A DNA stretch of 64,000 nt, taken from positions 601,827 through 665,826 of the forward strand of contig CAYRKM010000001.1 in NCBI GenBank assembly GCA_964425075.1, in the 5' to 3' direction. The notes below the pieces were generated by a model. That model ran no database searches, was not told the origin of the DNA, and saw nothing but the letters and a program-made list of their open reading frames with translations. Below are positions 44,459-64,000 of the stretch, piece after piece. The position numbers were made by a program, and so were the translations under genes. Positions within the stretch are counted from its first letter, which is position 1. Every line of letters starts with the position of its first letter. This DNA comes from an uncultured Gammaproteobacteria bacterium. Its GTDB lineage: Bacteria; Patescibacteriota; Microgenomatia; Levybacterales; GWA1-39-11.

Positions 44459-44535
44459 ATTGTGGAGGAGATGATGACTATGATGGATGAAAAGAGGCAT
44501 AAGCATTAAACAATATCAAGAGGAGAGATCAACAT

Positions 44536-45030: not shown

Positions 45031-45033
45031 CTG

Positions 45034-45054
45034 TGTACTACAATTAGTAGTACA
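45034..45054 (+). promoter_or_regulatory. Cop-box-like operator TGTACTACA-ATT-AGTAGTACA upstream of second P-type ATPase
   Basis: 8/9-bp inverted repeat arms; TTGACT -35-like hexamer at 45027-45032. Confidence 0.45.
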
Positions 45055-45081
45055 AATATATTATGCAGATGAGAAATAGTT

Positions 45082-47304
45082 ATGAGTAACAAAACATATA
45101 CCTGTCCAATGCATCCTGAAGTCAGAAAAGACAAGCCTGGTGTTTGTCCTAAATGTGGCATGGCACTTGTTGAAGTAAAGAATGATAAACATGGAATGCA
45201 TGAAAGTCATTTGAGCCATGAGCATACAATGAAATCCCTTGATCAAATGTCATTTTGGGAAAAATTCAAGATGAGTATGACTATGACAATGGGTATGGAC
45301 CATACAGGGAAAGCAGGACGTGAGATGGCGAAGCTAATGGAAGAGGATATTCGAAATAAGTTTTTGGTCTCTCTTCTTTTGACACTTCCAATTGTTGCCT
45401 ATTCTCCACTTGGAAAGAACATCTTTGGTCTTAATCTACCAACGCCGATTCCTGAGAATTGGTTAATGCTGTTACTGACAACTCCTGTTTATTTTTATTG
45501 TGGTTGGATATTCCTTTACTCAAGTTATATTGCTCTTAAACAAAAGACGCTCAATATGGCAGTTTTGATTGCCGTTGGCATTACTGCGGCCTATGTCTTT
45601 AGTATTGTTTTAACTCTTTTAGGATCTGAAGAATCTTTTTATGAAGCAGCAGCAATGCTTACTACTTTTGTCCTCTTTGGTCATTGGATGGAAATGAAAT
45701 CAAGGCGTGGCACAACTGATGCCCTTCAGGCCCTATTTAATCTCGTTCCCCCTCAAGCACGAGTAATGAGAAATGGCAAAGAGCAGTTAATTCCTACCTC
45801 AGAAGTTGTATTAGGAGATATTGTCGTTCTTAAGCCTGGCGATAAAGTGCCGGTTGACGGGGAAATTATAGAAGGAGAAACGTCAATAGACGAATCACTT
45901 GTTACAGGTGAATCAATACCTGTTGCCAAGAAAAAGGGAGATAGTGTCATTGGCGGTTCCATCAATACTTCAGGATCAGTACAATTCAATGCCACAAAAG
46001 TAGGAGGAGATACAGCGCTAGCACAGATTGTAAAGATGGTAGAAACAGCTCAGAACTCAAAAGCTCCCGGGCAGAAGCTTGCTGATAGGTTTGCCAAGTA
46101 TTTAGTTATTGTAGCTGTTGGAGGAGGATTACTAACCTTTGCAGTATGGTTTTTAATTCTCGGCCAACCATTCTTATTTGCAGTCACATTTGCCATTTCA
46201 ACAGTTGTTATTGCCTGTCCTGATGCTCTTGGACTTGCAACACCTACAGCGGTGGCAGTAGGAACAGGACTTGGAGCCAAACACAACATTTTGATTAAAG
46301 ACGCTCCGACACTTGAACAGGTATCCAAGATCCAAGCCGTAGTGTTAGATAAAACAGGCACTCTCACAGAAGGAAAGCCACAAGTGACAGGTATTGCAAC
46401 CGCAAAAGGGTTTTCAGAAAAAGAAGCACTAAGACTCGTGGGAGCCGCAGAGGTAAAATCTTCTCATCCTTTAGCAAACGCCGTAATCGAAGAGCTGAAA
46501 AAAAGAAAACTTGCTTTGCCTACATCAATAGAAAAATTTGAGAATCTTTCTGGGCTTGGCGTAAAAGCCACAGTAGAAGGTAAAAAGGTACTTGTCGGGA
46601 CAGTGAAATTGATGAAAGAAAATAGCGTTGATGTAAAGCCTCTCGAAAACAAAATTAATGAATTTTTAGAAAACGGAAATACTATCATGCTTCTTGCAGT
46701 TGAAGGTACCATTTCAGCTCTTGTAGGAGCTGCAGATCCAATAAAAGAGAATGCAAAAAAAGCTATAGATAAATTAAATGAATTAGGCATAGAAACTGCA
46801 ATGATCACTGGGGACAACGAAAAAACAGCACAAGTAGTTGCGAAGAAGATTGGTATCAAACGAGTATTTGCCGATGTCATGCCTGAAGATAAAGCTTCAT
46901 ATGTTAAAAAGTTGCAGCAAGAAGGAAAATTTGTGGCTATGGTTGGCGATGGTGTAAACGATGCGCCTGCACTTGCTCAAGCAGATATAGGAATTGCTAT
47001 TGGTGCCGGAACGGATGTAGCAATAGAAACAGCGAAAGTTGTACTTATGAAATCTGATCCAGCAGATGTGCTTCGCGCTATTAGACTCTCCAAAGCAACA
47101 GTAAGGAAAATGAAACAAAACCTATTCTGGGCATCTATTTATAATCTTTTGGCAATTCCTGTGGCTGCTGGAGTTCTTTACCCTGCTTTCCAGATTTCGC
47201 TACGTCCCGAAATATCAGCTCTTCTGATGAGCATTTCCTCAATCATTGTTGCAACAAATGCAGTCCTCCTTAATAGAGCAGAAAAAGACCTTATAAGTGT
47301 GTAA
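45082..47304 (+). CDS. Heavy-metal P1B-type ATPase with N-terminal CxxC x2 metal-binding domain, His-rich stretch and non-canonical CPD TM6 motif
   Basis: YTCPMHPE...CPKCGM; HGMHESHLSHEH; IACPDALGLATP; DKTGTLT; GDGVNDAP. Confidence 0.85.
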   Translation: MSNKTYTCPMHPEVRKDKPGVCPKCGMALVEVKNDKHGMHESHLSHEHTMKSLDQMSFWEKFKMSMTMTMGMDHTGKAGREMAKLMEEDIRNKFLVSLLLTLPIVAYSPLGKNIFGLNLPTPIPENWLMLLLTTPVYFYCGWIFLYSSYIALKQKTLNMAVLIAVGITAAYVFSIVLTLLGSEESFYEAAAMLTTFVLFGHWMEMKSRRGTTDALQALFNLVPPQARVMRNGKEQLIPTSEVVLGDIVVLKPGDKVPVDGEIIEGETSIDESLVTGESIPVAKKKGDSVIGGSINTSGSVQFNATKVGGDTALAQIVKMVETAQNSKAPGQKLADRFAKYLVIVAVGGGLLTFAVWFLILGQPFLFAVTFAISTVVIACPDALGLATPTAVAVGTGLGAKHNILIKDAPTLEQVSKIQAVVLDKTGTLTEGKPQVTGIATAKGFSEKEALRLVGAAEVKSSHPLANAVIEELKKRKLALPTSIEKFENLSGLGVKATVEGKKVLVGTVKLMKENSVDVKPLENKINEFLENGNTIMLLAVEGTISALVGAADPIKENAKKAIDKLNELGIETAMITGDNEKTAQVVAKKIGIKRVFADVMPEDKASYVKKLQQEGKFVAMVGDGVNDAPALAQADIGIAIGAGTDVAIETAKVVLMKSDPADVLRAIRLSKATVRKMKQNLFWASIYNLLAIPVAAGVLYPAFQISLRPEISALLMSISSIIVATNAVLLNRAEKDLISV

Positions 47305-47373
47305 TTTTGATTAATCCTCATAGTATTTTGCGTCTGGACTTCAAAGAACGGTTGCGGTACCTTGTCCCCTGAT

Positions 47374-48702
47374 ATGAACTACCAGAATGAATTATTACAG
47401 CAACCAACTCAAACACAACCGCTGGTTATTGAATATTGTCTCTACGCACGAAAATCCACAGAAGATGACGAGCGCCAAGCGATGTCAATCGATTCTCAAA
47501 TTAAAGAGATGACTGACATGGCGATCAAAGAAGGACTCTTTATCAAAGAAATCAGACGAGAAAGTCATTCTGCTAAAATGTCAGGACAACGACCAGTCTT
47601 CAATCAACTTCTCAATGACTTAAGAAATGGTCTATTCACCGGAATTCTCACATGGGCTCCGGATCGATTATCAAGAAATGCAGGAGATTTAGGAATGCTG
47701 GTTGATATGATGGATGGCGGAAAACTCATTCACATTAAAACATTTACGCAGGCATTCTCAAACAGTCCAAGCGATAAATTTTTACTCATGATTCTCTGCT
47801 CTCAAGCAAAACTCGAGAATGACCAAAAAGGGATAAATGTTAAACGAGGTATCAGAGCTAAATGCAATATGGGATGGAGACCAGGGATGCCACCAATCGG
47901 TTATTTCAACAGAGCAATGGCTGGGATAAAAGATATTATTCCTGACCCTGAAAGAGCACCATTTGTGACAGAAATGTTTGAAAGAGTTGCGAGGAACGGA
48001 GATAGTGGACGAACACTCAAAAAATGGCTGGATACATGCCTTACAACAAGGGCGGGAAAGAGAGTCACGCTAAGTCAGATTTATCTCATGCTCAAGAATC
48101 CTTTCTATTACGGGGAATTTGAATATCCAATTGGAAGCGGTAATTGGTATAAGGGATCACATAAGCCATTAATTACCAAAGAGCTATTTGATCAAGTCCA
48201 GAAACAACTTACAGTGCCATTTAAAAAAGCAAAATGGGGAAGCAAAATGTTTACCTTCAAAGAACTCTTTAAATGTGCAAGCTGCGGATCATTAGTAATT
48301 GGTGAGGACAGATATAGAAAGAGAAAATATGGAGAGCCGAGGTATCATATCTACTATCATTGTACTAGACAAAAGAAGTACGGCTGTCCTGAGCCATACT
48401 TAACAGAAGAAAAGCTTGTAAAGCAAATTCTTCGATATCTTAATTTTATGTACATGGCACACCCGCAAATATTTACCTTCAAGGAATTTATAAAACAAAG
48501 CATGGAAGCATATAAGAAAATGAGAGACGAAATTCTCTGGGCGCAAGATATAAACCCTGAGAATAAGCCTGTACATTTTATGGATTATGCAAATTATATT
48601 TTCAGAAATGGAACACTGCAAGAAAAACGAGAAATAACGAATATCCTCAATCGACAACTCTATATACACAACGAAACGGTCACTTCAGTACCCCTTATCT
48701 AG
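47374..48702 (+). CDS. Large serine recombinase (paralog of 17457..18797)
   Basis: Same motif set; conserved upstream TGCGGTACCTTGT..CCTGA.ATG shared with paralog. Confidence 0.85.
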   Translation: MNYQNELLQQPTQTQPLVIEYCLYARKSTEDDERQAMSIDSQIKEMTDMAIKEGLFIKEIRRESHSAKMSGQRPVFNQLLNDLRNGLFTGILTWAPDRLSRNAGDLGMLVDMMDGGKLIHIKTFTQAFSNSPSDKFLLMILCSQAKLENDQKGINVKRGIRAKCNMGWRPGMPPIGYFNRAMAGIKDIIPDPERAPFVTEMFERVARNGDSGRTLKKWLDTCLTTRAGKRVTLSQIYLMLKNPFYYGEFEYPIGSGNWYKGSHKPLITKELFDQVQKQLTVPFKKAKWGSKMFTFKELFKCASCGSLVIGEDRYRKRKYGEPRYHIYYHCTRQKKYGCPEPYLTEEKLVKQILRYLNFMYMAHPQIFTFKEFIKQSMEAYKKMRDEILWAQDINPENKPVHFMDYANYIFRNGTLQEKREITNILNRQLYIHNETVTSVPLI

Positions 48703-49267
48703 ATGATTTTCTCTTTCGTTTCTTTAAAACAAAAGCAACTAGTCCTAGTCCCAAAGCACCTCCAATGATGGGTAAAAGCATATTTGTATTAACAGACTTC
48801 TCTACAGTTTCACTTGTCTGGGAACTGGATAAATCCTGAGTATAACCATTTGGTGAATATCCACTGCCAAGAACTGCTCTATCTTCTTCCGAAAGATTTC
48901 CTGTAACTTCTTTATTTCCCATGCATGCATTTGTTTTAAGGTTACCTGAGTCCATTTTTAGAAAAAGGAGATATTTTTTGTCCTCTTCAAACGCAAAATC
49001 GACAGACGTTACTGTACCTGGAGCTTCTTGTCCACTTACCTCAATCTGAGAAGGTCCACCATGACCTTTAAAGTATCGCTCGACATTAAATATAGCTGGA
49101 GTATCAGCTATACTTGTTACTCTACCTAACACGACAATATCTGCCTGTTCTTTATATTCAGCTAATGACACAGCAGGAGCACAGGAAGCAAAGGCAACAT
49201 GAGGAGTAAAGGATAAGAGCGAAAAAAGTGCGATTATAAAGGTAAATAGTATATTTCTAAGTTGCAT
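48695..49267 (-). CDS. Secreted protein with signal peptide and C-terminal TM anchor plus basic tail
   Basis: N-terminal hydrophobic leader; C-terminal LLPIIGGALGLGLVAFVLKKRKRKSSR sorting-signal-like segment. Confidence 0.4.
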   Translation of the reverse strand: MQLRNILFTFIIALFSLLSFTPHVAFASCAPAVSLAEYKEQADIVVLGRVTSIADTPAIFNVERYFKGHGGPSQIEVSGQEAPGTVTSVDFAFEEDKKYLLFLKMDSGNLKTNACMGNKEVTGNLSEEDRAVLGSGYSPNGYTQDLSSSQTSETVEKSVNTNMLLPIIGGALGLGLVAFVLKKRKRKSSR

Positions 49268-49466
49268 GTTTATAAAAGGATTATACCAAAAATTTTCTGT
49301 TTGAATCCTAACTCTGCGGTTAAGTAGGACATATATGAACCTTAGCCTTAATATGGGGATTTTGAGGGTGTTTTGCCGGTCCGAATGTTTCCCGTCTTGA
49401 AGGGGATTTTAGCAAGCCCCTTCAAGCTAAATAGGGAATACGGTCACTCTAGGGTGCCCGTCTCAG

Positions 49467-49537
49467 CTGGGAGTCAGGGATTTGAACCCCAATAAACAGA
49501 TCCAGAATCTGTTGTCCTACCATTAGACGAACTCCCA
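49467..49537 (-). tRNA. tRNA-Gln (anticodon CUG), U1-A72, discriminator G, CCA not encoded
   Basis: Manual cloverleaf: acceptor TGGGAGT/ACTCCCA, D stem GTCT/GGAC, anticodon stem ACAGA/TCTGT with loop TTCTGGA, T loop TTCAAAT. Confidence 0.7.
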
Positions 49538-53591: not shown

Positions 53592-53785
53592 GAGTTTGGT
53601 GTGGGTTTGGGTTTCGTCGTAGCATTAAATCTGTGACCCGTAGGAGAGTCGAACTCCTCTTACTAGGATGAGAACCTAATTTCATCGCTACCTTGATGCA
53701 AGCATCAAGGGTAACCAATAGAATGTGACCCAAACGGGTTCGGAACCATATAGGCCTTATAGCGGTTCTTTGGACTGTCTCACCT

Positions 53786-53822
53786 TGAGGCTAAATGAGA
53801 CAAATGAGACACCATAAAAGAG
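53786..53822 (+). repeat. Copy B of conserved hairpin motif (GAGGCTAAATGAGACAAATGAGACACCATAAAA)
   Basis: Matches 22693-22730 with 2-3 substitutions; preceded by weaker ~50-nt similarity. Confidence 0.6.
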
Positions 53823-53872
53823 AATCGTATAGTCTTAAAATGATATAGTTTGATATATTTAAGGCAGTGCTG

Positions 53873-54319
53873 CTAATGTAGCTCGTAGAATTTTACATTT
53901 TCTCCATATGAGTATGGTGAATCGAATATTTTATGTTCAAAAATCGGCCCATTTGACCATTTTGAGCGAACCATTCCTTTTCCAAGATAAATACCAGAAT
54001 GGTAGATGATTGGAGCGATTTCTCTTTCAGTATCTATGTATAAAATTATGCAGTTTAGTTTAGGTTGAGGTAGCTCAACTAAGTTACCATCTGTTAGTAG
54101 TTGAAAGACATTTGGTGTGGGAAACCAAACGCCTTTATTGAATGTGAAGCCGTGACAATTCATTTGTCTCTCGCGTGTATCCGGCTCGCCAATAATTTTA
54201 AGACTTGAGGGGATACTGCTTTCTACTTCATCAAAGAAATTAGCATCAACCATACCTCTTTTTTTCATCAACTGATCAAGGCTTATTCTGGAACCTTGGG
54301 AATATTTTTTAAAATTCAT
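53873..54319 (-). CDS. Hypothetical protein (possible Cys/His papain-like hydrolase)
   Basis: Weak CHGFTF...IIYHSGIYLGKG pattern only. Confidence 0.3.
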   Translation of the reverse strand: MNFKKYSQGSRISLDQLMKKRGMVDANFFDEVESSIPSSLKIIGEPDTRERQMNCHGFTFNKGVWFPTPNVFQLLTDGNLVELPQPKLNCIILYIDTEREIAPIIYHSGIYLGKGMVRSKWSNGPIFEHKIFDSPYSYGENVKFYELH

Positions 54320-54451
54320 AGATTAGTAAAAAAAAGGGTAAAAACTTGTTCCTCGCAAGAACACACCTCATATAAGCTACTCCGGTTGTTTTGTGAAGTC
54401 TTTACCCTCAAAAATATTATAACACTGGATTAAAAATAGAAAAAAACGAAC

Positions 54452-55453
54452 CTAACTTATGAGGGTAACATTTGGATCTTCTGGAGCATTGTTTCTGATA
54501 ATACTTATGTATTTAGAATCTTTTGCAATTTTCTGAACCTCATCTAGATAATTAACAGTGTTATCCTTTTCAAGGTATACGATATTTCTCTTATGCTTCA
54601 TGTATTTCTTAATCAGATCAAGAGTTTCCTCTTCCCTCAAGAACTCACTACTGTCCATTGTGATTGTTACTTTCATTGGATTAAAATCTTCAGAGGAGAA
54701 TGATAAAGCCCATTTTGCCTGCTCCTCAACAGTCATATATTCGTGATATTTTCCTTTAACCATGTAAGGGGATACGACTGCAATGCCTGAGAGTGCGAAA
54801 AGTTGGATAGTTAGTAAAAATCTGTCCTCTCTCAATTCGTTATCAAGAATATAAAATATATCTACTCCCCGGCTTTGTATTGCATCCCAGAACTCAGTAA
54901 TAACAGTTGCAAAGTATGCGCGAGTATAATCATCTACCTGAGTAGCAGATGATGAATAACGATATGTATGATCTACTAAGAATATTGCTAAACTTTTAAG
55001 TTTTTCTTTATCGGGACTTACATCACGGAAAAAATTCCAAATATAGTTAGTTAATTGTTTTGGCAGTTCGGTTTTGTCATCATTCTTTCGCATCTCTGCT
55101 AGATAAAGGTCAATTTTCTCAATAATATCTGTAATTTTTAAAAGAAGGGTGTCAGATTTGCCTGAGGGGCTATCGTGTTGGCTTTTACTCCTCTCAACTA
55201 CCTTAAGTGCCATTTCCTCTTTTATGACATCGGGGACATTAGTATGCAAGAATATATCTTCAATTTCTTCCTGAACATCCCACAGGTGTTTTTTAAGAAA
55301 GTGGTACTTTTTTTCACCATTTTCTATCACACTAGTTGCATATAAATCCCCGTTTTCATCTGCAAGTTTGTCTATGGTTTCAATATCAACATCCCAGTAT
55401 TCCTCAAGAATTTCATCAAAATCTTTTATGAATACCTTATTTTTCTTATTCAT
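54452..55453 (-). CDS. Hypothetical protein
   Basis: ORF only. Confidence 0.35.
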   Translation of the reverse strand: MNKKNKVFIKDFDEILEEYWDVDIETIDKLADENGDLYATSVIENGEKKYHFLKKHLWDVQEEIEDIFLHTNVPDVIKEEMALKVVERSKSQHDSPSGKSDTLLLKITDIIEKIDLYLAEMRKNDDKTELPKQLTNYIWNFFRDVSPDKEKLKSLAIFLVDHTYRYSSSATQVDDYTRAYFATVITEFWDAIQSRGVDIFYILDNELREDRFLLTIQLFALSGIAVVSPYMVKGKYHEYMTVEEQAKWALSFSSEDFNPMKVTITMDSSEFLREEETLDLIKKYMKHKRNIVYLEKDNTVNYLDEVQKIAKDSKYISIIRNNAPEDPNVTLIS

Positions 55454-55475
55454 GCTATTACAAATTGTTTTGTTA

Positions 55476-55802
55476 TTATTTGTTTCTTTGGTGAATTACT
55501 TCTACTAACGCGTCGGCTACTTGATCGAGGCATCTGTCAATAATCTGGTTGGTAACATAAAAAGTACTAAAATCATCACCATCAGAGTAATGGCTTCTCT
55601 TAAAGTCTCTTGTTATTTGTGTGGGATCTGTAAAGTGTTGTAAGCCATCAACTTCGATGAACAATTTTGCATCCAATACTGCAATATCAACAGTCTTGTG
55701 CCCATCGTTATATTCCAATACAGCATTGATTCCCCTGGCTGTTAATGCGTCATATAACATTTTTGAATGTTGACTTGAGGAATTATTAATAGCTTGATCC
55801 AT
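55476..55802 (-). CDS. DUF559 / Vsr-like endonuclease-fold protein
   Basis: VDIAVLDAKLFIEVDGLQH matches DUF559 hhD...hIExDGxxH core. Confidence 0.6.
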   Translation of the reverse strand: MDQAINNSSSQHSKMLYDALTARGINAVLEYNDGHKTVDIAVLDAKLFIEVDGLQHFTDPTQITRDFKRSHYSDGDDFSTFYVTNQIIDRCLDQVADALVEVIHQRNK

Positions 55803-55843
55803 GACTTATTAAAATATAGCAGATTTGATAATACTCTGAAGGA

Positions 55844-56245
55844 CTACTCTAGAATTTCCTCAATTAATCCAATGACTTCAAATGCAAAATCATCAAGATT
55901 TTTATAATCTTTGAAAACTATTTTCTGAATACCTTTTGCACGTAATTGGTCGTTATATTCAGGAATCGAAGATATTCCAATGATTTCAGAGTCTTTGTAT
56001 TTATTAAGATCAAGAGCATGGAATGAGCCTCCGGCTTTACAGTCGCGATCTAAAAGAATTACATCAAATTTTTCAGTTGTACTTGGATTAATATGTTCTT
56101 CAACCTGCCAGTATTCAGAAAGTACCGTGATAGCAATATCTCTCCCTTCGTTTTGGATCCTTTTTTCAAGGAGGGTAAAATGTTTCAGAAGTGTTGCAAG
56201 CGTTTCGAGGTCATCTTCAAGAATTAAAATGCGATGCATTTTCAT
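55844..56245 (-). CDS. Standalone response-regulator receiver domain protein
   Basis: ILILEDD acidic pair, VILLDRD phospho-acceptor Asp context, ~130 aa. Confidence 0.55.
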   Translation of the reverse strand: MKMHRILILEDDLETLATLLKHFTLLEKRIQNEGRDIAITVLSEYWQVEEHINPSTTEKFDVILLDRDCKAGGSFHALDLNKYKDSEIIGISSIPEYNDQLRAKGIQKIVFKDYKNLDDFAFEVIGLIEEILE

Positions 56246-56367
56246 ATATATTGACTTACCTTAGCATATATTTCTCTGTTTGTGTAGCCTCAAATTAAAG
56301 TCATTATAGATGATAGGATTTACAAAATATTTGCTTTGAAAAATAACAGCGAGTATACTTTTTAGGA

Positions 56368-56739
56368 ATGGATGAAGAAGCAAAAAAACAAATCGAAGAA
56401 CTCAAAACTGAGGTCGTAAGCTTACGAATTAGGGTAAAAAGACTTGAAGATTTTTACAATGCATTTCCAGATCCAGCAGAATATTTATATGACCATGATT
56501 TAGGACCTGGAGAAAGAGATGATCTATTCGAACAAGCTGTGAGGGTAGTAGCTCAACATGATAGAGCCTCCGCTTCACTAATCCAGAGAAGAATGCAGAT
56601 TGGATTTAATAGAGCCGCAAGACTATTAGAACAACTGGAAGAAGCAGGCGCAATAGGAGCTGCCGATGGATCAAAACCAAGAGATGTTTTGATAAAAAAT
56701 GCTGACGAGTTTTTAAAGAAACTTGAGGAAAATAGTTAA
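56368..56739 (+). CDS. Standalone FtsK gamma (KOPS-binding winged-helix) domain protein with N-terminal coiled coil
   Basis: DDLFEQAVRVVAQHDRASASLIQRRMQIGFNRAARLLEQLEEAGAIG closely matches FtsK gamma domain (DPLFDQAV...[30 protein letters not shown]). Confidence 0.85.
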   Translation: MDEEAKKQIEELKTEVVSLRIRVKRLEDFYNAFPDPAEYLYDHDLGPGERDDLFEQAVRVVAQHDRASASLIQRRMQIGFNRAARLLEQLEEAGAIGAADGSKPRDVLIKNADEFLKKLEENS

Positions 56740-56745
56740 TTATTC

Positions 56746-57459
56746 TTATTTATTCGCTAAATCAACAGCCCTATAAATTGCCCCAAGCTCGCGCACCGAT
56801 TCCATTTCATTTTCAAAAATTAACTTTTCGCAATCCTCTGGGTTATTTTTATAAAGTTTTTGGACACAAAAGACTAATGTTTTTAAGTCTCCAACAACCT
56901 GACTTGATGATTGATTATCAAAAAACATCACATAGAAGAACTGCATGCAAAATAGAGCTAAATTGAAAAGAAAAAAGTTAGGTAGAGCAAACAATAAGAT
57001 AATAAGTAGCACGCCGACCTCAGCCCCATTTCTAAATGCGTGATATTTGAAACCTACTGAATTATAGTGAGATATAACGTGCAGTGCCCCCTCTGGATTC
57101 TCTGACTCTGCATCGTCTATTTTCAAAGTTTTGATATTTTTTAAGTAATAATTTATACTTTTTCGTCTTTTGACATGGATCTTATACATCCACGACTTTT
57201 TCATTAGAAACCAGAAAGTATTTGACCATGCAAGACTAATAAATGTAGTTACACTGATGAAAAAGATTTTTATATAAATCAAAGGTAGAGTATAGGGGTC
57301 AGGATTAATTAAAATTGGGATTGTTAAAATAACGCAGACAATCAATATCAAAATACGCTTATTAATTGGTGGATTATCAATGATAACAGTTGCAAAATTC
57401 CAACAAGATTCAAAGTCTCCAATAATATCAAAAAATAAGGATTTAATTTTATTCAGCAC
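56746..57459 (-). CDS. Hypothetical multi-pass membrane protein
   Basis: Several TM helices; no motifs. Confidence 0.4.
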   Translation of the reverse strand: MLNKIKSLFFDIIGDFESCWNFATVIIDNPPINKRILILIVCVILTIPILINPDPYTLPLIYIKIFFISVTTFISLAWSNTFWFLMKKSWMYKIHVKRRKSINYYLKNIKTLKIDDAESENPEGALHVISHYNSVGFKYHAFRNGAEVGVLLIILLFALPNFFLFNLALFCMQFFYVMFFDNQSSSQVVGDLKTLVFCVQKLYKNNPEDCEKLIFENEMESVRELGAIYRAVDLANK

Positions 57460-57475
57460 AAATTATTTAATTGAG

Positions 57476-59686
57476 TTATTTAAGTTTTATCTGTTTTCCT
57501 GGTTTAAGAAATTGCTTTGAAATTTTCTCTACAACTTCATCCTTTACCCAATCAAACGATAAAAATGTAGCCAAATCAACAAGTTTACTACTGTTTTTGT
57601 CCCATCCAAACCCTACCCACTCTTTACATTTAGTGGAATATTTTTTCATGACTGCAAATGAATAGAGCTGTTTATATAGTTTTTCTGGATCATCGCGAGT
57701 ATCCATTCCAATAAAACAATATCCTAACGGCTTTTCATCAAGTACAAAAGAAAAACTTTCAAGTTTTTTCCCAGACGTAACTTTAGTTTTGAGAGATTCT
57801 ACGGATTTAACGAAATTTTCTCTTCCCTTATATCCAAGATCGAGTAATCTCATGGCACAATCTGTACTATAAGGAGTTCTGAGTTTAGTGATAGCTGATA
57901 AATAATCATCAAAGCCATCAGGTGATTGTTGACGAGGTTTGGTAGGATTTAAAGTTGTTTCATGCTTTTCAAAGATATATTTATCTACTTCTCCAGAAAC
58001 ACCAGAAAAACTCGCGGCGTTATATTGATCAAATTCGCCATCTTCAAAATAAATTCCTCTTGAGAAATACAGCCCGAGTAAGTCTATTTCATCAGCCATC
58101 AAATGAAAAGTCGTCTTTTCTATTGTCATTCTACGCGAAATGTAATGTAAAAATTGTTCAGGTGAGTCAATTATTTCCGTGATTGTACCAAGATCAGAAA
58201 GAGATACAGACCAAGGATATTTATTCTCTTCAAAAACTTTAAGGATAGAATTCGTATTCGAGAATCTCGTTGTAAAATTTTGGTAGCTATCTAGCGTAAC
58301 GCTTATTGGAAAAATCTTAGATATTTGTCGACTATCTACTACAATTTCTCCCTTTTCTACCTTGATTTTTACTGGCTTACCAGCCTCTAGGTAATTTTTA
58401 GCTTTTATTGCCTGGTCGAATGCACTTCGTATTCCTTTTGAAATATCACTTTTGATTGCTTCTATATTCATGCCTATTAATGATTCATGTTGCATCCGCT
58501 TTGTCTTATCTTGAAAGACCAAAACATATCTATCAAAAAGAACTAACACATCACACATTTCCGTACCATCTGGGTATTCAGGATTTAGAAAAATACAGTC
58601 TTTTGGAAATATTCTTTCAAGATATTCGGCTGTTTTCTCTTCGAGAGAGTTGGCGTAGGTTTTTGATCCACCTGAGTTCCAATATTGGCTATCTCCAATC
58701 AAATCATAGTAAAACGTATGATATAGAACTTCATAAAATAATGAAGGTATTGGAACATAATATTTTCCACCACGCCCAATAATTGGTTTTTCGTAGAGGG
58801 TGTTGTAGTCCCAAGGTGCAAGTTTTGCTTCTTCAAATGAATTGGGAAATCTTGGATTTTTGTATCCGAAATTTTGGCTCAGCCTAGATAAGAAAGCTTT
58901 GCAGATATCTTCTGGGAATCCTGAAAATGATACAAGCTCTTTCAACGAAAAAGAAAGAATTCGATCAGATTCTCCAAAAAAGTAGTAACAACCAACTCGC
59001 GTTATATATTTTTTCTCATCAAAAAGTGGATCGCTACTTTCTGGATGATCTTTTACATATTTCTTTGCTTTTTTGAGACTTAATTCTTTCTCAAGATTAA
59101 CTCTATCGTTATATTCTGAAATAATTGATTCGCTTATGCTTAGTGCCTCAGCGATAGTAAAGCCAAGCCTTTCCTTAAACCATTTATCATGAGTAGAGTA
59201 TAGACTAACTAATATATCTCTCAGTTGATGTTGGTATGATTCTCCTCGAACATAAAATGAAAATAACTTAGCACTTTTAAGAATAGCTTCAATTTCTTTG
59301 TCCTCTTCCTTTTCTATTAAGCTACCTGATGTGAGAAGGTCAGTCGTAATACTTTTTAGATATCTTTCAAGTGCTTTCTCTACAATCTCCAAATCCCCTC
59401 CATCTACTAATGATTTTGGGGCTATCGGGTAATCCTGGGAAAGATACAGTCCAGCAAGAAATTCTGACTTTCTGAGCCATTCTTCCTGTTCTGAATCTTC
59501 ACCATGAAATTCGTTTTCTGGAACTAATAAATATGTGAGATGAATTTGGCTCAGTAACTTAATCGGGTCGTATTTAGACAAAGTTTCTATTAGTTCCTTG
59601 AATGAAGTTTCAATTTCTTGGAGATTGTCTTTATTTACATCCGTAAGTTTTTTAGTAAATGCCTGTTGTTTTGGTAGTTTCTTCAT
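57476..59686 (-). CDS. Large uncharacterised protein (736 aa), possible PD-(D/E)xK-like segment
   Basis: ORF; GTEMCDVLVLFDRYVLVFQDK nuclease-like strand pattern; ATGA overlap with upstream gene. Confidence 0.45.
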   Translation of the reverse strand: MKKLPKQQAFTKKLTDVNKDNLQEIETSFKELIETLSKYDPIKLLSQIHLTYLLVPENEFHGEDSEQEEWLRKSEFLAGLYLSQDYPIAPKSLVDGGDLEIVEKALERYLKSITTDLLTSGSLIEKEEDKEIEAILKSAKLFSFYVRGESYQHQLRDILVSLYSTHDKWFKERLGFTIAEALSISESIISEYNDRVNLEKELSLKKAKKYVKDHPESSDPLFDEKKYITRVGCYYFFGESDRILSFSLKELVSFSGFPEDICKAFLSRLSQNFGYKNPRFPNSFEEAKLAPWDYNTLYEKPIIGRGGKYYVPIPSLFYEVLYHTFYYDLIGDSQYWNSGGSKTYANSLEEKTAEYLERIFPKDCIFLNPEYPDGTEMCDVLVLFDRYVLVFQDKTKRMQHESLIGMNIEAIKSDISKGIRSAFDQAIKAKNYLEAGKPVKIKVEKGEIVVDSRQISKIFPISVTLDSYQNFTTRFSNTNSILKVFEENKYPWSVSLSDLGTITEIIDSPEQFLHYISRRMTIEKTTFHLMADEIDLLGLYFSRGIYFEDGEFDQYNAASFSGVSGEVDKYIFEKHETTLNPTKPRQQSPDGFDDYLSAITKLRTPYSTDCAMRLLDLGYKGRENFVKSVESLKTKVTSGKKLESFSFVLDEKPLGYCFIGMDTRDDPEKLYKQLYSFAVMKKYSTKCKEWVGFGWDKNSSKLVDLATFLSFDWVKDEVVEKISKQFLKPGKQIKLK

Positions 59687-61350
59687 AATTCAATTGATTT
59701 TCCGTCTTTACCGCTAACCGTCATCTTTATATCAGATTTCTTTTTCGGATACTTCTTGAGAAATTCCTGATTTTCACTCACTAAGTAAACTGTGTAGTAA
59801 TCAGATCCATCTTGTCTCTTTAAATCCCTACCATGAAGCAATCCTTCTTTCATTAATTTACGAACAGATGATGGGTGAACTCCATGATTGGACTTTATCT
59901 GCCAACTCTCAAACCAATTACTTTTGTCATCATATCTGGGTGTTAATGATGGAATAACGCCTTCTTGAATGTTTCTCCAGCAATCTTTGCATCGTGTTCC
60001 GTCCAAATTCCACCACATTTCATTACCATAGTAGTGTTCACCACAAATAGTACATGTAAGTGGGCCTTCACTGGCTTCAAGGAAGAACCCTTCTGGTTCC
60101 TTTTCAAGTCTTCGCTTTCTCATATTCTCAATTCCTGCATACTTCCCAGTCATTCGCCCAAGTTGGACTAAGTTGTTTGAAGCGTACTTCTGGCGTTTTT
60201 CTTCATCAATTTTTGGTTTGGGCTTGGGCTCATCTGTTTTTCCAGCAAGTTTGAGCATATCTTCTTCTCGTTCATATCCTTTCAGTCGTCCCTCAAGATA
60301 TCCAAGTCGGTACATGACGCTATTGGATAATAACCGCCAATTAGTGTTTTCCAGAGCACCCTTAATCAGTTTTTCTAGTTCAGAAACGCTTACTCTGTCT
60401 CTCCGCGTGGAATCGTTGTCCTGAAGCGTAAAGGGAACAATGACATATTGACCAATCTCTGGTTTCTCAAATGAGAGTTTGGCGTATTTGGCTTTTTCGA
60501 GTGGTTCTAATAATAGTTTTTCCAGGTCTACAATGGTTGTTCTCTTTAGTTTAGTAACTCGCTCATAAACAGGGTTATCATACTTTTGCATCTCTTCTTC
60601 ATGAACAACATTAGCAACTTCCATAGCTTCAAGTGTTTCAACGTATTCTTTGCCTTCTTTGTCTGACAAACAAAATTCTACTCGGTACTTTTCAAGAAGT
60701 TTTTTACCTTCTTCTTCCTTTTTATCTTGTTCTTCTTGCCATTTCTTGTGCTCTTCATCGTGCTTGCTAAGATCTTCCACTTCAGTTTTTGAGAAGCCAC
60801 AAACTTTGCACTTATGCTTCCAAGTAATGGCTTTGCCTTTTCGAGTAGCCTTTATATCTATTCCTTTCTTGCACTTGGGACAAAGATCAGGTTTTGAAAC
60901 TCGTATTTCACCATCATCGAATACCCATTGTTGTTTATCGCAGTTGTTACACTTAAAAAGAAACATCATCCTTAGAATTGGACTATCGTATGAGTATTCA
61001 AGATGCTTTGAAGAGTTAAAAGACATTGAACCAACGCAGAAGGGACAAACAATTCCTTCTGGAGCGGGAGTAAGATCCTGTTTGTCTTGTTTTAGCTTAT
61101 CTTCCTCAATCCATTTCTGGATGGTTTCTTGTCTTTTCTCATATCTTTTTCCTTTTATAACAAAAAGTGTTCGATGGAGCATGAGATTTGAATCTTTTAA
61201 TTTGTCTTCTTGGGAAAGATGTTTAAGATCTTCGCTAACTAAGATTTTTTGATAAATATCTTGAAACATTTTTACATTATCAAGGCATTCTTCAATGGTG
61301 TGAAGGTCGTAACGATTTATATAGTGTTGTTCATCACGAAGATACTGCAT
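59683..61350 (-). CDS. Uncharacterised Lys/Glu-rich protein with multiple zinc-ribbon motifs (555 aa)
   Basis: CPFC...CNNC, CPKC...CKVC, CTIC...CKDC Cys pairs. Confidence 0.45.
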   Translation of the reverse strand: MQYLRDEQHYINRYDLHTIEECLDNVKMFQDIYQKILVSEDLKHLSQEDKLKDSNLMLHRTLFVIKGKRYEKRQETIQKWIEEDKLKQDKQDLTPAPEGIVCPFCVGSMSFNSSKHLEYSYDSPILRMMFLFKCNNCDKQQWVFDDGEIRVSKPDLCPKCKKGIDIKATRKGKAITWKHKCKVCGFSKTEVEDLSKHDEEHKKWQEEQDKKEEEGKKLLEKYRVEFCLSDKEGKEYVETLEAMEVANVVHEEEMQKYDNPVYERVTKLKRTTIVDLEKLLLEPLEKAKYAKLSFEKPEIGQYVIVPFTLQDNDSTRRDRVSVSELEKLIKGALENTNWRLLSNSVMYRLGYLEGRLKGYEREEDMLKLAGKTDEPKPKPKIDEEKRQKYASNNLVQLGRMTGKYAGIENMRKRRLEKEPEGFFLEASEGPLTCTICGEHYYGNEMWWNLDGTRCKDCWRNIQEGVIPSLTPRYDDKSNWFESWQIKSNHGVHPSSVRKLMKEGLLHGRDLKRQDGSDYYTVYLVSENQEFLKKYPKKKSDIKMTVSGKDGKSIEL

Positions 61351-64000
61351 TGTATTTTTCGTAAATCTCCCTCAGTCGAAGATTTCGGTGTTCAGCATAA
61401 AACACACATATTTGATTAGCAAGATCCTTTACTTCTTTCTCTTTTTTGCCTACGTTGTACAAAAAGGTAATAATTTCCACAATATTTTCCCATTTGTAGT
61501 CAGGTATTAACTCTTCTGCACCTTCAAGCATTTTGAGAAAAAGCAAACCGATATATTTGGCCGTTTTTTGTTGATCACCCTTATTCTTAATATCGTTTAG
61601 ATATTCAATGAAGTATGGTGAGTCAAAATCCACAGTTACAAATGGAGCGGAGATAAGTAACCTTTTATATCCTATTTCATCTAAGTTAGAAAGATAAATA
61701 GAAAACTTACCCATTTCACTTAACACTTTTTTATCATCTTCTGTTAAAGGCTTCTTCTTGCTAAATATGTCAAGAATATAATCCCAGAATGTGATAATTC
61801 TTGATTTAAATTCTGACTGTTCTTTCTGGACAGCTTCGTCCTTGCTTTTCTCAAAGATTATATAGTCTTTTTGATGCCACAGGAATTCAACTACCTGGCG
61901 AAGGTATACTGAGTCCTCTGTGGCAATAATTGTATCCATCAGGCTATCGCTTCCAAGCTTTTCATCTCCTCTTACATAGCCAACCGTTATGTGCTGAATA
62001 AGACGCTCTTGAATTCTTTTATCTTCAAAATTCACAGCAAGAGCTTTTTCATAAGCCTTTACTAACAATTTGTATAGCTTTTCATAAACTTTGCCAGTGA
62101 ATAAATACCCCTCCATGAATGTTTCAAACTTTTTATCTTCTAGGGTATGGATACTTTTTGACTTATTTTCAGCCCATTCTTTGTCGATGTAATGGAGGTT
62201 TGGTAGATACTGTCCCAATAATGTATATGCTTCCAAGATGTCTTGCTCTAAAGCTTTTTCAAAGTTACCTTTCAAAGATTTACTCCATTTTGAGGTTTTT
62301 TTCTCTTTGTTTTTGTCACTTAATCTTGCTTCTCTAAGACCTAAGTAAATAATAGCTATGAGCATTTTCCCCCAACTCGAGTTTAAGGCGTGATCAACCC
62401 CTGCGCCTTTGTATGTTTCATTATCATAAGGCAACTTATCAACAATAATATCAATGACCTTTTCTATGTCAGTATGTAGGGATTCATTAAAACTCCAGTC
62501 ATCAGCTCTGCAACCCTCCCGTATCAGATCTCCAATTGCTGAAAGTGTCCAAGCGTAATAATTTTGATGGCGTAATTTATCTTCTTCTGGAGGTTTCCAA
62601 AACCAGTCTTCTTGCAGCAGTTCAAGCGTAAATTTTATTACTTTATCCCAAGAAATATCTTTATGCTGTTTCCAGGCTTCCTCCAAGCCATTATAGAGAC
62701 TTAATAACAAGTGGTAGTCCTTAGTTTTAAAGGGAAATATATTCTGAGTAAATTTATTGGGATCAAGCTCTACAGCAGATTGCAATGTACTATATATTCC
62801 ATCCGGTGAAAAATTCGAGAATTGTCCTGAAGGTTTGTATTCTGCAACATACTTTACTATCCCGTCATTTTCTTTTGTCAAAAATTCTTCAGCCGAAACC
62901 GGTGACTTATCAAATTCCTCCTTAAATATTACTCCATCGTTGTATTCAGGCAATCTTACTTCCCGCTTAGTTACTTTCTTAATTTCTTCATACCTAGACT
63001 TAAACTCAGGATTTGTGTCAAGAATTTTATATAAGCTTTGTTTCCAATAAAGTTTATATTCTTCTTTCTTATTGTCTGGCAGCTCATCAGAAGGGCCTTT
63101 ATCAATTATTCTTTCGAGTTTATTTTTTTGTTTTTGTGTCAATTCGTTTGAATGTTCCCTTAGAAGGTGCGCAAGTTCCGGCTTAAATGCATCTCTATCA
63201 AAATATTTCTCTTTGTTGTCATCTAAAATAAGGTCGAAATACTTACTAAAATTTTTCCAATCCATAGAAATAAGTACTATTGCCAGACGTTTGAAAAGGG
63301 TATGGGGATATTCATCGCTTAAGAACCTATCAATAACTTCCATGCCTTCTTTCTTACTATGTTTTACCTTTTCTATTGCAATCTGACGGAGTATTATGGC
63401 AAGAAAGTGTTCAGGATTATAAATCGATTTTGTTTGATCTTTAGTCAAATCCCTAAGCCAAATATAAGAATAGTCATCAGTTTTATATTTCTTATTAAAA
63501 ATCCTCCGTATCTTGTTTGAGAGATTAAAAATAGGTTCGTTTGTGCATTTTTGTGCAATAAGCTGCGAATTATTTTTAGCAATAAAGCTTTCTTCAAGCC
63601 AATGAGTATCAATTTTTGTTTCTACGTCTATTGTGTCGCCGAGCGTGCTTTTTTTAACTTTTAAATCTTTAACATCAAGTAAAGCATCGACAAGTCTTTC
63701 AACCTTTTTAACATCTTCCGGATTATTAATTTGATTAAGATATGATGGCAATAGATCATCAGTTAGATCTGCACCAGGCAAAGTAAGGTTAAATTTAGAA
63801 TCAAGCCACACTGGCAGTGCTTGGTTAAATATTTTGTATGGAACTTTTGACAGAGGAATGTTAAGTAAGATTTTTACGAAATACCACCAAGTTCTGTAAT
63901 TATCTATGTGTGCGCCATTTTTTTTGTATAGCGATACCTCATCAATTATTTTTAGTAATTCATCATCAAGCTTCCTATACTTAACAGATAGTTTTTCAAG
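61334..64000 (-). CDS. Very large uncharacterised alpha-helical protein, 3' part (gene continues beyond window end; track Met at 63811 is an internal GTG)
   Basis: Reading frame stays open from 63811 to 64000 on minus strand (…KIFNQALPVWLDS…), no stop. Confidence 0.45.
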   Translation of the reverse strand, partial: LEKLSVKYRKLDDELLKIIDEVSLYKKNGAHIDNYRTWWYFVKILLNIPLSKVPYKIFNQALPVWLDSKFNLTLPGADLTDDLLPSYLNQINNPEDVKKVERLVDALLDVKDLKVKKSTLGDTIDVETKIDTHWLEESFIAKNNSQLIAQKCTNEPIFNLSNKIRRIFNKKYKTDDYSYIWLRDLTKDQTKSIYNPEHFLAIILRQIAIEKVKHSKKEGMEVIDRFLSDEYPHTLFKRLAIVLISMDWKNFSKYFDLILDDNKEKYFDRDAFKPELAHLLREHSNELTQKQKNKLERIIDKGPSDELPDNKKEEYKLYWKQSLYKILDTNPEFKSRYEEIKKVTKREVRLPEYNDGVIFKEEFDKSPVSAEEFLTKENDGIVKYVAEYKPSGQFSNFSPDGIYSTLQSAVELDPNKFTQNIFPFKTKDYHLLLSLYNGLEEAWKQHKDISWDKVIKFTLELLQEDWFWKPPEEDKLRHQNYYAWTLSAIGDLIREGCRADDWSFNESLHTDIEKVIDIIVDKLPYDNETYKGAGVDHALNSSWGKMLIAIIYLGLREARLSDKNKEKKTSKWSKSLKGNFEKALEQDILEAYTLLGQYLPNLHYIDKEWAENKSKSIHTLEDKKFETFMEGYLFTGKVYEKLYKLLVKAYEKALAVNFEDKRIQERLIQHITVGYVRGDEKLGSDSLMDTIIATEDSVYLRQVVEFLWHQKDYIIFEKSKDEAVQKEQSEFKSRIITFWDYILDIFSKKKPLTEDDKKVLSEMGKFSIYLSNLDEIGYKRLLISAPFVTVDFDSPYFIEYLNDIKNKGDQQKTAKYIGLLFLKMLEGAEELIPDYKWENIVEIITFLYNVGKKEKEVKDLANQICVFYAEHRNLRLREIYEKYNAVSS

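What the first reader, a model, noticed from the sequence alone, without database searches (positions are those of the whole stretch)
57476..64000. Translationally coupled operon of three very large uncharacterised proteins, one with multiple zinc ribbons
Genes at 61334..>64000 (>=888 aa, runs off the window), 59683..61350 (555 aa, six CxxC pairs, Lys/Glu-rich) and 57476..59686 (736 aa, nuclease-like strand motif) overlap by 17 and 4 nt (ATGA). No domain is recognisable by eye. Size, coupling and zinc-ribbon/nuclease hints are consistent with an undescribed multi-component system, possibly defence or nucleic-acid processing.
Basis: inference. Interest (0 to 1): 0.6.

Follow-up and report, generated by a model that had tools for sequence, protein, structure and literature searches.

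The report
Defence island: split Dsr1, anchor protein, nuclease
The three tightly packed large genes are not one three-part machine. They are three separable pieces of a phage-defence island in a Patescibacteria (CPR) genome: the sensor half of a known NAD-depleting system (Dsr1), an uncharacterised zinc-ribbon protein that recurs inside many such islands, and a stand-alone restriction-like nuclease.

Summary
In detail: three overlapping minus-strand genes with 17-nt and 4-nt (ATGA) overlaps, and six invariant CxxC pairs in the middle one.

- **Gene 1 (A)** is 957 aa in full, with only 69 codons off-window. It is the sensor part of Dsr1 (PADLOC E 4e-126). A contig identical to the window shows a separate 336-aa SIR2 gene directly upstream that matches the Dsr1 N-terminus. 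This makes it a gene-split Dsr1. About 20 other split loci exist, and at least 10 of them have no gene 2.
- **Gene 2 (B)** has no family or fold match. It belongs to a largely Patescibacteria-restricted family of 973 clusters at 50% identity. In about 75 loci its neighbours on both sides are different defence systems (CBASS, SIR2-HerA, RM, Shedu, RT systems). None of the 80 genome loci carries C, and none has a Dsr1-type sensor next to B. An orphan terminase/ParB-methylase module often lies divergently upstream.

The defence context is right, but the "three-component system" is not supported. B's function is unresolved. My best guess is a DNA-binding backbone or regulatory protein of a mobile defence island.

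The parts
61334..64000 (-). Gene A (3' 888 of 957 codons). Stand-alone sensor subunit of a gene-split Dsr1. Its SIR2 partner gene and A's first 69 codons lie beyond base 64000.
   Evidence: PADLOC Dsr1 PDLC04166, E 3.6e-110, model positions 393-1225 of 1227. The full protein P0219 is 957 aa and matches positions 308-1225, E 4e-126. L099 is identical to the window over 3547 nt and shows a 336-aa SIR2_2 gene upstream, overlapping A by 4 nt.
59683..61350 (-). Gene B, 555 aa. Uncharacterised conserved zinc-ribbon protein, the 'island anchor' family (long form).
   Evidence: No Pfam, NCBIfam, PADLOC or PHROG family. More than 817 close homologues at 55-87% identity, and 973 clusters at 50% identity. 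AF2 pLDDT 85.6. No PDB or BFVD fold match beyond one small domain.
60772..61062 (-). B residues 97-193: beta-rich domain with two Cys4 zinc ribbons (C102/105+C134/137 and C157/160+C181/184).
   Evidence: All eight Cys are invariant. The model shows beta-hairpins here. Zinc-ribbon Pfam hits are sub-threshold.
60271..60534 (-). B residues 273-360: (alpha-beta-beta)x2 ferredoxin-like domain, preceded by long Lys/Glu-rich helices (194-267). Probably an oligomerisation or interaction module.
59746..60063 (-). B residues 430-535: third Cys4 zinc ribbon (C433/436+C454/457) plus a winged-helix-like C-terminal domain. Absent from the short (~360 aa) form of the family.
   Evidence: Model secondary structure. 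Invariant Cys. Short-form homologues match only residues 1-370. The resemblance to an excisionase/MerR-type HTH is by eye only (inference).
57476..59686 (-). Gene C, 736 aa. Solitary large PD-(D/E)xK nuclease with helical N-terminal domain and winged-helix domains. Candidate single-protein defence nuclease.
58292..58741 (-). C residues ~316-465: nuclease core. Catalytic-type residues E349, E376, D379, D385, Q392, K394 and K396 lie within it (nt 58499-58561 for residues 376-396).
   Evidence: E349, E376, D379, D385, K394 and K396 are invariant and Q392 is at least 90% conserved in 60 homologues. The strand-strand-strand pattern in the model runs 365-393. Weak profile hit to the Can2 nuclease domain at 340-401.
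56746..57459 (-). Gene D, 237 aa, hydrophobic, 16 nt downstream of C. Listed as a neighbour, not as part of a system.
   Evidence: No family hit. Present after C only in the same strain (L001, L003). L004 has a different gene on the opposite strand.
53633..53706 (-). tRNA-Glu marking the inner edge of the variable segment (53.8 to beyond 64 kb) that holds the cluster.
   Evidence: ARAGORN. Lon and PPAT housekeeping genes lie on the other side. GC is lower, 0.33-0.37 against 0.36-0.41.

Best explanation
The cluster is a stretch of a Patescibacteria defence island made of three separable modules. They are packed head-to-tail because these genomes are compact.

(1) Gene A and the off-window SIR2 gene form a gene-split Dsr1.
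- Shown: the two genes together cover the whole Dsr1 profile.
- Inferred from published work on fused Dsr1: the large repeat sensor (A) recognises a phage protein (the major capsid protein for E. coli Dsr1). It then switches on the SIR2 NADase supplied as a separate subunit. NAD+ falls and phage replication stops.

(2) Gene C is an independent single-protein nuclease.
- Shown: a restriction-endonuclease-like PD-(D/E)xK core with invariant acidic and lysine residues, flanked by winged-helix domains, and solitary homologues in other phyla.
- Inferred: it cuts invading DNA, with the large N-terminal helical domain and winged helices giving target or trigger recognition.

(3) Gene B is not a subunit of either.
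- Shown: it is a conserved, largely Patescibacteria-restricted family that sits between different defence systems. It often has an orphan TerL-TerS-ParB/methylase module divergently upstream and defence cargo in between. It has no enzymatic domain, only three zinc ribbons, a coiled coil, a PilO-like interaction domain and a C-terminal winged helix.
- Inferred (about 40%): it is a DNA-binding backbone or regulatory protein of a mobile defence island, next to which cassettes are exchanged.

The confidence given is for the modular reading as a whole: three separable modules, not one three-part system.
For: Split Dsr1:
- PADLOC Dsr1 PDLC04166 matches A at model positions 308-1225 (E 4e-126) and the upstream SIR2 gene at 8-288 (E 8e-69).
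- L099 is identical to the window over 3547 nt.
- The same SIR2-then-A arrangement occurs in L095-L098 and in 20 of 33 metagenome loci.
- Homologues of A carry fused SIR2 or TIR domains, or none.
- The L099 SIR2 sequence has the GAGVS, TTNFD and HIHGS motifs (sequence).
- Published mechanism: Dsr1 depletes NAD+ (10.1101/2021.12.14.472415). The Dsr1/Avs7 sensor is triggered by the major capsid protein, and split proteins are mentioned (PMC12803255).

Independence of the modules:
- 0 of 80 B loci have C, and none has a Dsr1-type sensor next to B (one weak A-profile hit 5 kb away in L087).
- At least 10 split-Dsr1 loci have no B.
- C is solitary in L006, L007 and L136.
- In L004, SIR2-HerA replaces Dsr1 upstream of B-C.
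- Per-gene identities are incongruent. L095: SIR2 42, A 67, B 82. L100: 58, 54, 48. L004: B 64, C 88.

C as a nuclease.

B as an island hallmark:
- Neighbours at -1 and +1 include CBASS, type I/III RM, RT-Protease/RT-Toprim/RT-TIR, PbeA, Shedu (5), DUF4238, SAVED-HNH, Hhe and PDC candidates.
- 22 of 43 long-form loci have an opposite-strand ParB-methylase within 10 kb. 15 of these have TerS-like and 13 TerL-like genes beside it.
- Two copies per genome occur in three MAGs.
Against: - A and B are adjacent in five diverged lineages: window, L095, L097, L100/L101, and L121 (one gene removed). Identities roughly co-vary (A 30-67%, B 35-82%), so a functional A-B link in this sub-lineage is not excluded.
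- B is usually co-directional and tightly spaced with its upstream gene. 31 of 33 same-strand gaps are under 40 nt, against 67% in the background. This could mean B is a shared accessory subunit rather than a bystander.
- No experiment, complex prediction or expression data is available.
- B's function is inference only.
- The split sensor/SIR2 interaction is assumed, not shown.
- My gene calls in the loci come from a crude ORF picker.
- The 10-kb flanks truncate the architecture statistics.
Confidence: 0.72

Rival explanations
1. One reading: A, B and C are subunits of one undescribed three-component defence or nucleic-acid-processing system. A senses, B is a zinc-ribbon adaptor and C is the nuclease effector.
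For: The 17-nt and 4-nt overlaps. No internal minus-strand terminator. A lacks a fused effector, and C is a nuclease.
Against: A's effector is the SIR2 gene directly upstream. The triad occurs only in the window's own strain. C is solitary elsewhere. B-C follows SIR2-HerA in L004. Overlaps are the norm in these genomes.
Confidence: 0.07
2. B is a shared accessory or regulatory subunit that plugs into many different defence systems. It would act like a common adaptor or transcription factor co-transcribed at the 3' end of each operon. In the window it would modulate the split Dsr1.
For: B directly follows Dsr1, SIR2-HerA, CBASS (SAVED), RM and RT systems, co-directionally and with gaps of -59 to +38 nt in 31 of 33 cases. 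A-B adjacency persists over deep divergence. The C-terminal winged helix and zinc ribbons suggest nucleic-acid binding.
Against: 20 of 53 long-form loci have an opposite-strand gene upstream. These systems work without B in other phyla (published single- or multi-gene systems; split Dsr1 without B). The short form lacks the winged helix. Downstream partners are just as variable.
Confidence: 0.2
3. B is itself a stand-alone anti-phage protein of a new kind. It may be identical or related to LdgA or DdgA, two Patescibacteria-restricted defence proteins found by functional selection.
For: B sits between known defence systems on both sides. Its distribution is sporadic, with paralogous copies per genome. 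It is nearly restricted to Patescibacteria and has no sequence or fold homology. LdgA and DdgA are described in the same way (PMC12366544).
Against: B has no recognisable effector or enzymatic domain. Conservation is unusually high for a defence protein, with 65% mean column identity. Its position relative to the TerL-TerS-methylase module is conserved. The LdgA and DdgA sequences could not be obtained, so identity is untested.
Confidence: 0.25

Closest known systems
Dsr1 (defence-associated sirtuin 1; Gao et al. 2020; NAD+ depletion shown in 10.1101/2021.12.14.472415)
   Same: A plus the upstream SIR2 gene together cover the whole PADLOC Dsr1 profile, positions 8-288 and 308-1225 of 1227. The SIR2 motifs are intact in the L099 sequence.
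   Different: The effector and sensor are two genes with a 4-nt overlap rather than one polypeptide. The NCBIfam Dsr1 equivalog scores only 38 bits against a 1400-bit cutoff, so this is a distant relative. No activity data exist.
Avs7/Dsr1 shared repeat sensor that recognises phage major capsid protein (PMC12803255)
   Same: A belongs to the Dsr1 sensor family. Its homologues swap N-terminal effectors (SIR2, TIR or none), as that paper describes. The paper's methods mention split proteins.
   Different: The trigger of this sensor is unknown. The TPR/bilobed fold of A was not modelled here.
Upx and other single-protein PD-(D/E)xK defence nucleases; type IIS nuclease domains (N.BspD6I, FokI)
   Different: There is no sequence-level similarity. 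The profile search of the PDB returned only Can2, at E 0.12. The domain order and size differ (736 against 1212 aa). C has a QxK-type motif. A second nuclease domain was not established.
Defence hotspots flanked by conserved backbone genes in phage satellites and prophages (P4/P2 hotspots, PICIs). Recalled from memory, not tested.
   Same: Conserved genes (TerL-TerS-ParB/methylase on one side, B on the other) bracket 0-7 variable defence genes. LexA/CI-like and XRE regulators and serine recombinases recur nearby.
   Different: No capsid or tail genes, att sites or excision evidence were found. B has no homologue in phage databases. Element boundaries are not defined.
LdgA / DdgA, Patescibacteria-restricted defence proteins (PMC12366544)
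   Same: Same phylum restriction and the same lack of detectable homology as B.
   Different: No comparison was possible, so this is a lead only.

Membership tests
Dsr1 | Large C-terminal sensor region homologous to Dsr1 | tested here: met
   PADLOC PDLC04166, E 4.2e-126, positions 308-1225 of 1227 for full-length A. E 3.6e-110 for the in-window part.
Dsr1 | N-terminal SIR2 domain fused to the sensor in a single polypeptide (single-gene system) | tested here: not met
   Full-length A is 957 aa with no SIR2 or other Pfam domain. SIR2 is a separate 336-aa gene upstream that matches Dsr1 positions 8-288, E 7.9e-69.
Dsr1 | Score above the NCBIfam Dsr1 equivalog cutoff (NF041818, 1400 bits) | tested here: not met
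   38.2 bits.
Dsr1 | SIR2 NADase catalytic motifs present | tested here: met
   GAGVS, TTNFD and HIHGS are present in the L099 SIR2 translation. Their identification as catalytic Asn/His motifs rests on my knowledge of ThsA-type SIR2.
Dsr1 | Phage-triggered NAD+ depletion; major capsid protein as trigger | not testable with these tools
   Known for B. subtilis and E. coli Dsr1 only.
PD-(D/E)xK nuclease superfamily (gene C) | Restriction-endonuclease-like alpha/beta core fold | tested here: met
PD-(D/E)xK nuclease superfamily (gene C) | Conserved acidic residues and Lys on the core strands | tested here: met
   E349, E376, D379, D385, K394 and K396 are invariant and Q392 is at least 90% conserved in 60 sequences. 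The motif reads D...QxK rather than D...(D/E)xK.
Upx family (gene C) | Sequence homology to Upx and its dual-nuclease architecture | tested here: not met
Three-gene A-B-C defence system | Conserved linkage of the three genes across lineages | tested here: not met
   The triad occurs only in the window's strain.
IS1595-type transposase / TniQ (gene B) | Family score above threshold and presence of a DDE (or TniQ core) domain | tested here: not met
   Zn_ribbon_IS1595 scores 14.7 bits against a 25.4 cutoff, with no DDE domain. TniQ gives E 0.0033 over about 80 residues only.
Phage or satellite backbone gene (gene B) | Homologues in phage genomes or phage protein families; structural genes nearby | tested here: not met
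   No tblastn hit in 50,697 phage records, no PHROG and no BFVD fold match. Only 3 IMG/VR contigs carry B, and these look like the same islands. TerL and TerS are nearby, but no capsid or tail genes were seen.

The most novel reading that the evidence does not exclude
B and its ~360-aa short form would be the hallmark backbone protein of a previously undescribed, Patescibacteria-specific mobile defence island. The island would be built on an orphan terminase (TerL-TerS) and ParB-methylase module, a satellite-like element with no capsid genes. B would bind DNA and control or anchor the hotspot where defence cassettes such as Dsr1, SIR2-HerA, CBASS, RM, Shedu and RT systems are swapped. Alternatively, B would be a new effector-less defence protein (possibly LdgA or DdgA).
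Probability: 0.3. Interest if true: 0.7.

Novelty: new variant of a known kind. Interest (0 to 1): 0.45.

Why it matters
Patescibacteria (CPR) are a large, mostly uncultured part of bacterial diversity, and few defence systems have been described in them. This locus shows three things.

- A known NAD-depleting system (Dsr1) exists there as a two-gene split form. This is a natural test of whether sensor and effector can work in trans.
- A rare, confidently modelled nuclease family (C) is a candidate single-gene defence.
- A strongly conserved protein without detectable homology (B) marks these bacteria's defence islands and could serve as bait to find new systems in CPR genomes.

If B turns out to be the regulator or anchor of a terminase-bearing mobile island, that would describe how immune genes circulate in this phylum.

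Tried and rejected
- Exact-protein look-up of B (P0099) found no contig. The window's own 835-kb NCBI contig could not be fetched, so the sequence beyond base 64000 comes from an identical 5.7-kb Logan contig only.
- The afdb50 fold library was not available.
- C was not found in IMG/VR.
- The promoter/terminator scan was uninformative.
- No repeat of the tRNA-Gln 3' end (an att-like site) was found in the window.
- I tested whether B is a recombination mosaic, with its 5' half travelling with the upstream cassette and its 3' end with the downstream one. The sliding-window identities are suggestive but not conclusive, because L097 also has Dsr1 upstream yet has a divergent N-terminus.
- Supplementary sequences of LdgA and DdgA are not held.
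- Rejected: 'gene 1 runs far off the window with a fused SIR2'. The full protein has 957 aa.
- Rejected: 'B is a transposase'. It has no catalytic domain.
- Rejected: 'tight overlaps prove a complex'. The background spacing is equally tight.
Full report
**Observation**

- The window carries three consecutive minus-strand genes: C at 57476..59686 (736 aa), B at 59683..61350 (555 aa), and A from 61334 to the window end (888 codons, no stop up to base 64000).
- B's stop and C's start form ATGA, a 4-nt overlap. A's stop lies 17 nt inside B.
- B has six CxxC pairs, and all twelve cysteines are invariant in 51 homologues.
- The genes are real. C has 98 database homologues, B has 817 and A has 124.
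- Two corrections apply. The full-length product of gene A in the same genome (P0219) is 957 aa, so only 69 codons are missing. Overlapping or near-touching genes are the rule in these genomes, with a median same-strand gap of 10 nt and 67% under 40 nt in about 1000 gene pairs of related loci.

**Gene A is half of a known system**

- PADLOC's Dsr1 model PDLC04166 matches the in-window part at E 3.6e-110, model positions 393-1225 of 1227. It matches full-length P0219 at E 4.2e-126, positions 308-1225.
- P0219 has no SIR2 or other Pfam domain.
- A Logan contig (L099) encodes exactly P0219 and is identical to the window over their 3547-nt overlap. It extends the locus upstream.
- On L099 a 336-aa SIR2_2 gene overlaps A's start by 4 nt. 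It matches Dsr1 model positions 8-288 at E 7.9e-69.
- Together the two genes tile the whole Dsr1 profile, so this is a gene-split Dsr1.
- The SIR2 protein keeps the GAGVS, TTNFD and HIHGS motifs. Their catalytic meaning is from my knowledge of ThsA-type SIR2.
- The same arrangement (separate SIR2, then an A-like gene) is seen in L095-L098 and in 20 of 33 metagenome loci found with an alignment of A homologues.
- Other homologues carry fused SIR2 (1346-1358 aa) or TIR (1100-1226 aa) domains.
- Published work gives the mechanism for fused Dsr1. It depletes NAD+ on infection (10.1101/2021.12.14.472415). Its repeat sensor is shared with Avs7 and is triggered by the phage major capsid protein. The family carries exchangeable effectors, and the authors mention split proteins (PMC12803255).
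- The NCBIfam Dsr1 equivalog scores only 38 bits against a 1400-bit cutoff, so this is a distant relative.

**Gene C is a solitary restriction-like nuclease**

- C has no Pfam, NCBIfam or PADLOC family.
- An AlphaFold2 model built on 60 homologues is confident (pLDDT 91, pTM 0.90).
- E349, E376, D379, D385, K394 and K396 are invariant, and Q392 is nearly so. They lie on the helix and strands of the core, residues 333-393. A weak profile hit to the Can2 nuclease domain covers 340-401.
- Upx is a published single-protein PD-(D/E)xK defence (PMC13099982). C resembles it at fold level only.
- C homologues in three other contexts stand alone, next to integrases, IS elements, Fic, a TIR protein or a type ISP restriction enzyme. 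These are a Methanoperedens MAG (L006), a 3.3-Mb genome (L007) and a 43-kb contig (L136).
- None was found in IMG/VR.

**Gene B is the unknown**

- B matches no family in Pfam, NCBIfam, PADLOC or PHROGs and no PDB sequence.
- It gives no tblastn hit in phage genomes.
- The model reads as follows:
  - a three-helix N-terminal bundle (1-93)
  - a beta-rich domain with two Cys4 ribbons (97-193)
  - long Lys/Glu-rich helices (194-267)
  - the PilO-like domain (273-360)
  - a Lys/Pro linker
  - a third Cys4 ribbon (433-457)
  - a winged-helix-like end (482-533)
- No enzymatic domain is apparent.
- The family has 973 clusters at 50% identity. A few are the ~545-aa long form and most are a ~360-aa short form equal to residues 1-370.
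- Long-form members are unusually conserved, with 65% mean column identity.
- Of 80 loci from species-representative genomes:
  - 43 are titled as Patescibacteria/CPR lineages.
  - 26 are third-party MAGs titled Gammaproteobacteria or Pseudomonadales. These labels look doubtful. One is isolate 'HK-STAS-PATE-15', and its genes are over 90% identical to an IMG/VR contig holding the same kind of island.
  - 5 are titled only 'bacterium'.
  - 6 are assigned to other phyla.
  - Three MAGs hold two copies.

**What surrounds B**

- Look-ups showed B directly after CBASS (SMODS-HORMA-AAA-SAVED), after SIR2-HerA, after split Dsr1, before DUF4238 genes, and beside type I restriction-modification.
- I called ORFs in all loci with a simple picker, clustered them by BLAST and scanned the -1 and +1 neighbours.
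  - Upstream neighbours include DUF2779 nucleases (7), type I/III restriction subunits, RT-Protease, RT-Toprim and RT-TIR reverse-transcriptase systems, PbeA, methylases and PADLOC candidate systems.
  - Downstream neighbours include Shedu (5), LexA-like (6) and XRE (6) regulators, DUF5677, DUF4238, SAVED-HNH, Hhe, AAA_15/21 and further candidates.
- In 22 of 43 long-form loci with enough flank, a ParB_N/N6_N4 methylase lies on the opposite strand within 10 kb upstream.
  - 15 of these have a TerS-like gene beside it, and 13 have a TerL-like gene (phrog_38, E 1e-76).
  - 0-7 mostly co-directional cargo genes lie between it and B.
  - No capsid or tail genes were seen next to that module in L012, L095 or L097.
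- B therefore behaves as a conserved landmark between exchangeable defence cassettes.

**Linkage test of the proposed system**

- C follows B only in the window's own strain (L001-L003) and in L004/L005. There the upstream system is SIR2-HerA, not Dsr1, and B is 64% identical while C is 88% identical.
- None of the 80 genome loci with B has C, and none has a Dsr1-type sensor next to B. The only A-profile hit there is weak and 5 kb away, in L087.
- At least 10 split-Dsr1 loci lack B.
- Identities to relatives are incongruent between genes. L095: SIR2 42, A 67, B 82. L100: 58, 54, 48.
- The triad is thus a local juxtaposition.
- One caveat remains. A-B adjacency recurs in five diverged lineages (window, L095, L097, L100/101, and L121 one gene removed), with roughly co-varying identities. 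A sub-lineage-specific A-B relationship cannot be excluded.

**Most likely mechanism**

- *SIR2 + A (confidence about 0.8 that it is a functional split Dsr1).* The sensor binds a phage protein and activates the SIR2 NADase in trans. NAD+ falls and phage replication is blocked. Homology and gene order are shown. Trigger, complex formation and activity are inferred.
- *C (about 0.6).* An independent Mg-dependent DNA nuclease acting on invading DNA. Its large helical N-terminal domain and winged helices would handle recognition or auto-inhibition, as in other single-protein PD-(D/E)xK defences. Fold and motif are shown. Substrate and defence role are inferred.
- *B.* Non-enzymatic, probably oligomeric and nucleic-acid-binding. 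My ranking is:
  - backbone or regulatory protein of a mobile defence island, about 0.4
  - stand-alone defence protein, possibly the Patescibacteria-restricted LdgA or DdgA of PMC12366544, about 0.25 (sequences unavailable)
  - shared accessory subunit of the upstream systems, about 0.2

**Context in the window**

- The cluster lies in a lower-GC segment (0.33-0.37) that starts at a tRNA-Glu gene (53633-53706), next to the housekeeping genes Lon and PPAT.
- Between the tRNA and C are small unannotated genes, a DUF559/Vsr-like fragment and a stand-alone FtsK-gamma protein.

**Verdict**

- Gene A is a new (split) member of a known kind, and C is an uncharacterised nuclease family of a familiar kind.
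- B is the novel element and deserves follow-up, mainly as a marker for CPR defence islands.

Noticed in passing
L012:4469-7752; also L095:1-1931, L100, L016 and others: An orphan phage packaging module lies divergently upstream of B in 22 of 43 long-form loci. It consists of TerL (~515 aa, phrog_38 E 1e-76), TerS (~139 aa) and a ParB_N/N6_N4 methylase (~446 aa). Defence genes flank it on both sides, and no capsid or tail genes were seen.
   Followed up: partly
window 42815-49537: Multicopper oxidase, a CopA-type P-type ATPase and a large serine recombinase (47362-48702) sit next to tRNA-Gln (49466-49537). This looks like a separate integrated copper-resistance island. No repeat of the tRNA 3' end was found in the window.
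   Followed up: partly
window 53633-57459: tRNA-Glu (53633-53706) separates Lon/PPAT from a lower-GC variable segment. That segment holds small unannotated genes (148, 333 and 133 aa), a DUF559/Vsr-like 108-aa fragment (55476-55802), a stand-alone FtsK-gamma domain protein (56368-56739) and a hydrophobic 237-aa protein (56746-57459). None hits PADLOC.
   Followed up: partly
L074-L094; P0357-P0487: The ~360-aa short form of B (residues 1-370, no C-terminal ribbon or winged helix) is far more diverse than the long form. It likewise follows large restriction or helicase genes. In L101 and L121 a short B lies after a split Dsr1.
   Followed up: partly
P0344 (697 aa); L070:10001-12100: A B variant is fused to a C-terminal AAA_18/AAA_33 P-loop (kinase-like) domain.
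   Followed up: no
window 59683-61350 compared with L004, L095, L097: Divergence along B is uneven. Residues 1-200 are 38-44% identical to L004 and L097, whereas residues 250-500 are 60-90% identical. The last 55 residues are closer to L004 (which shares C downstream) than to L095. This could be recombination inside B, or simply a fast-evolving N-terminus.
   Followed up: partly
L015-L094 record titles: 26 of the 80 B loci come from third-party MAGs titled 'uncultured Gammaproteobacteria/Pseudomonadales', although their gene content is CPR-like. L094 is isolate HK-STAS-PATE-15, on a 1.08-Mb contig. These taxonomic labels are probably wrong.
   Followed up: no
L048, L049, L052, L053, L055, L057, L058, L063, L064, L133, L134: A DUF2779 nuclease (PD-(D/E)xK plus a DEDD-like exonuclease) is the commonest single neighbour family of B, at -1 or -2 in 18 loci. 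In one subgroup B is followed by a LexA-type repressor in conserved synteny.
   Followed up: no
L099:1-903: In the window's own strain, the gene upstream of SIR2 is a protein of at least 300 aa with an N-terminal excisionase/MerR-type HTH (PADLOC mad1 HTH, E 2e-5). In L095 and L097 an unrelated 187-195-aa protein occupies that position.
   Followed up: no
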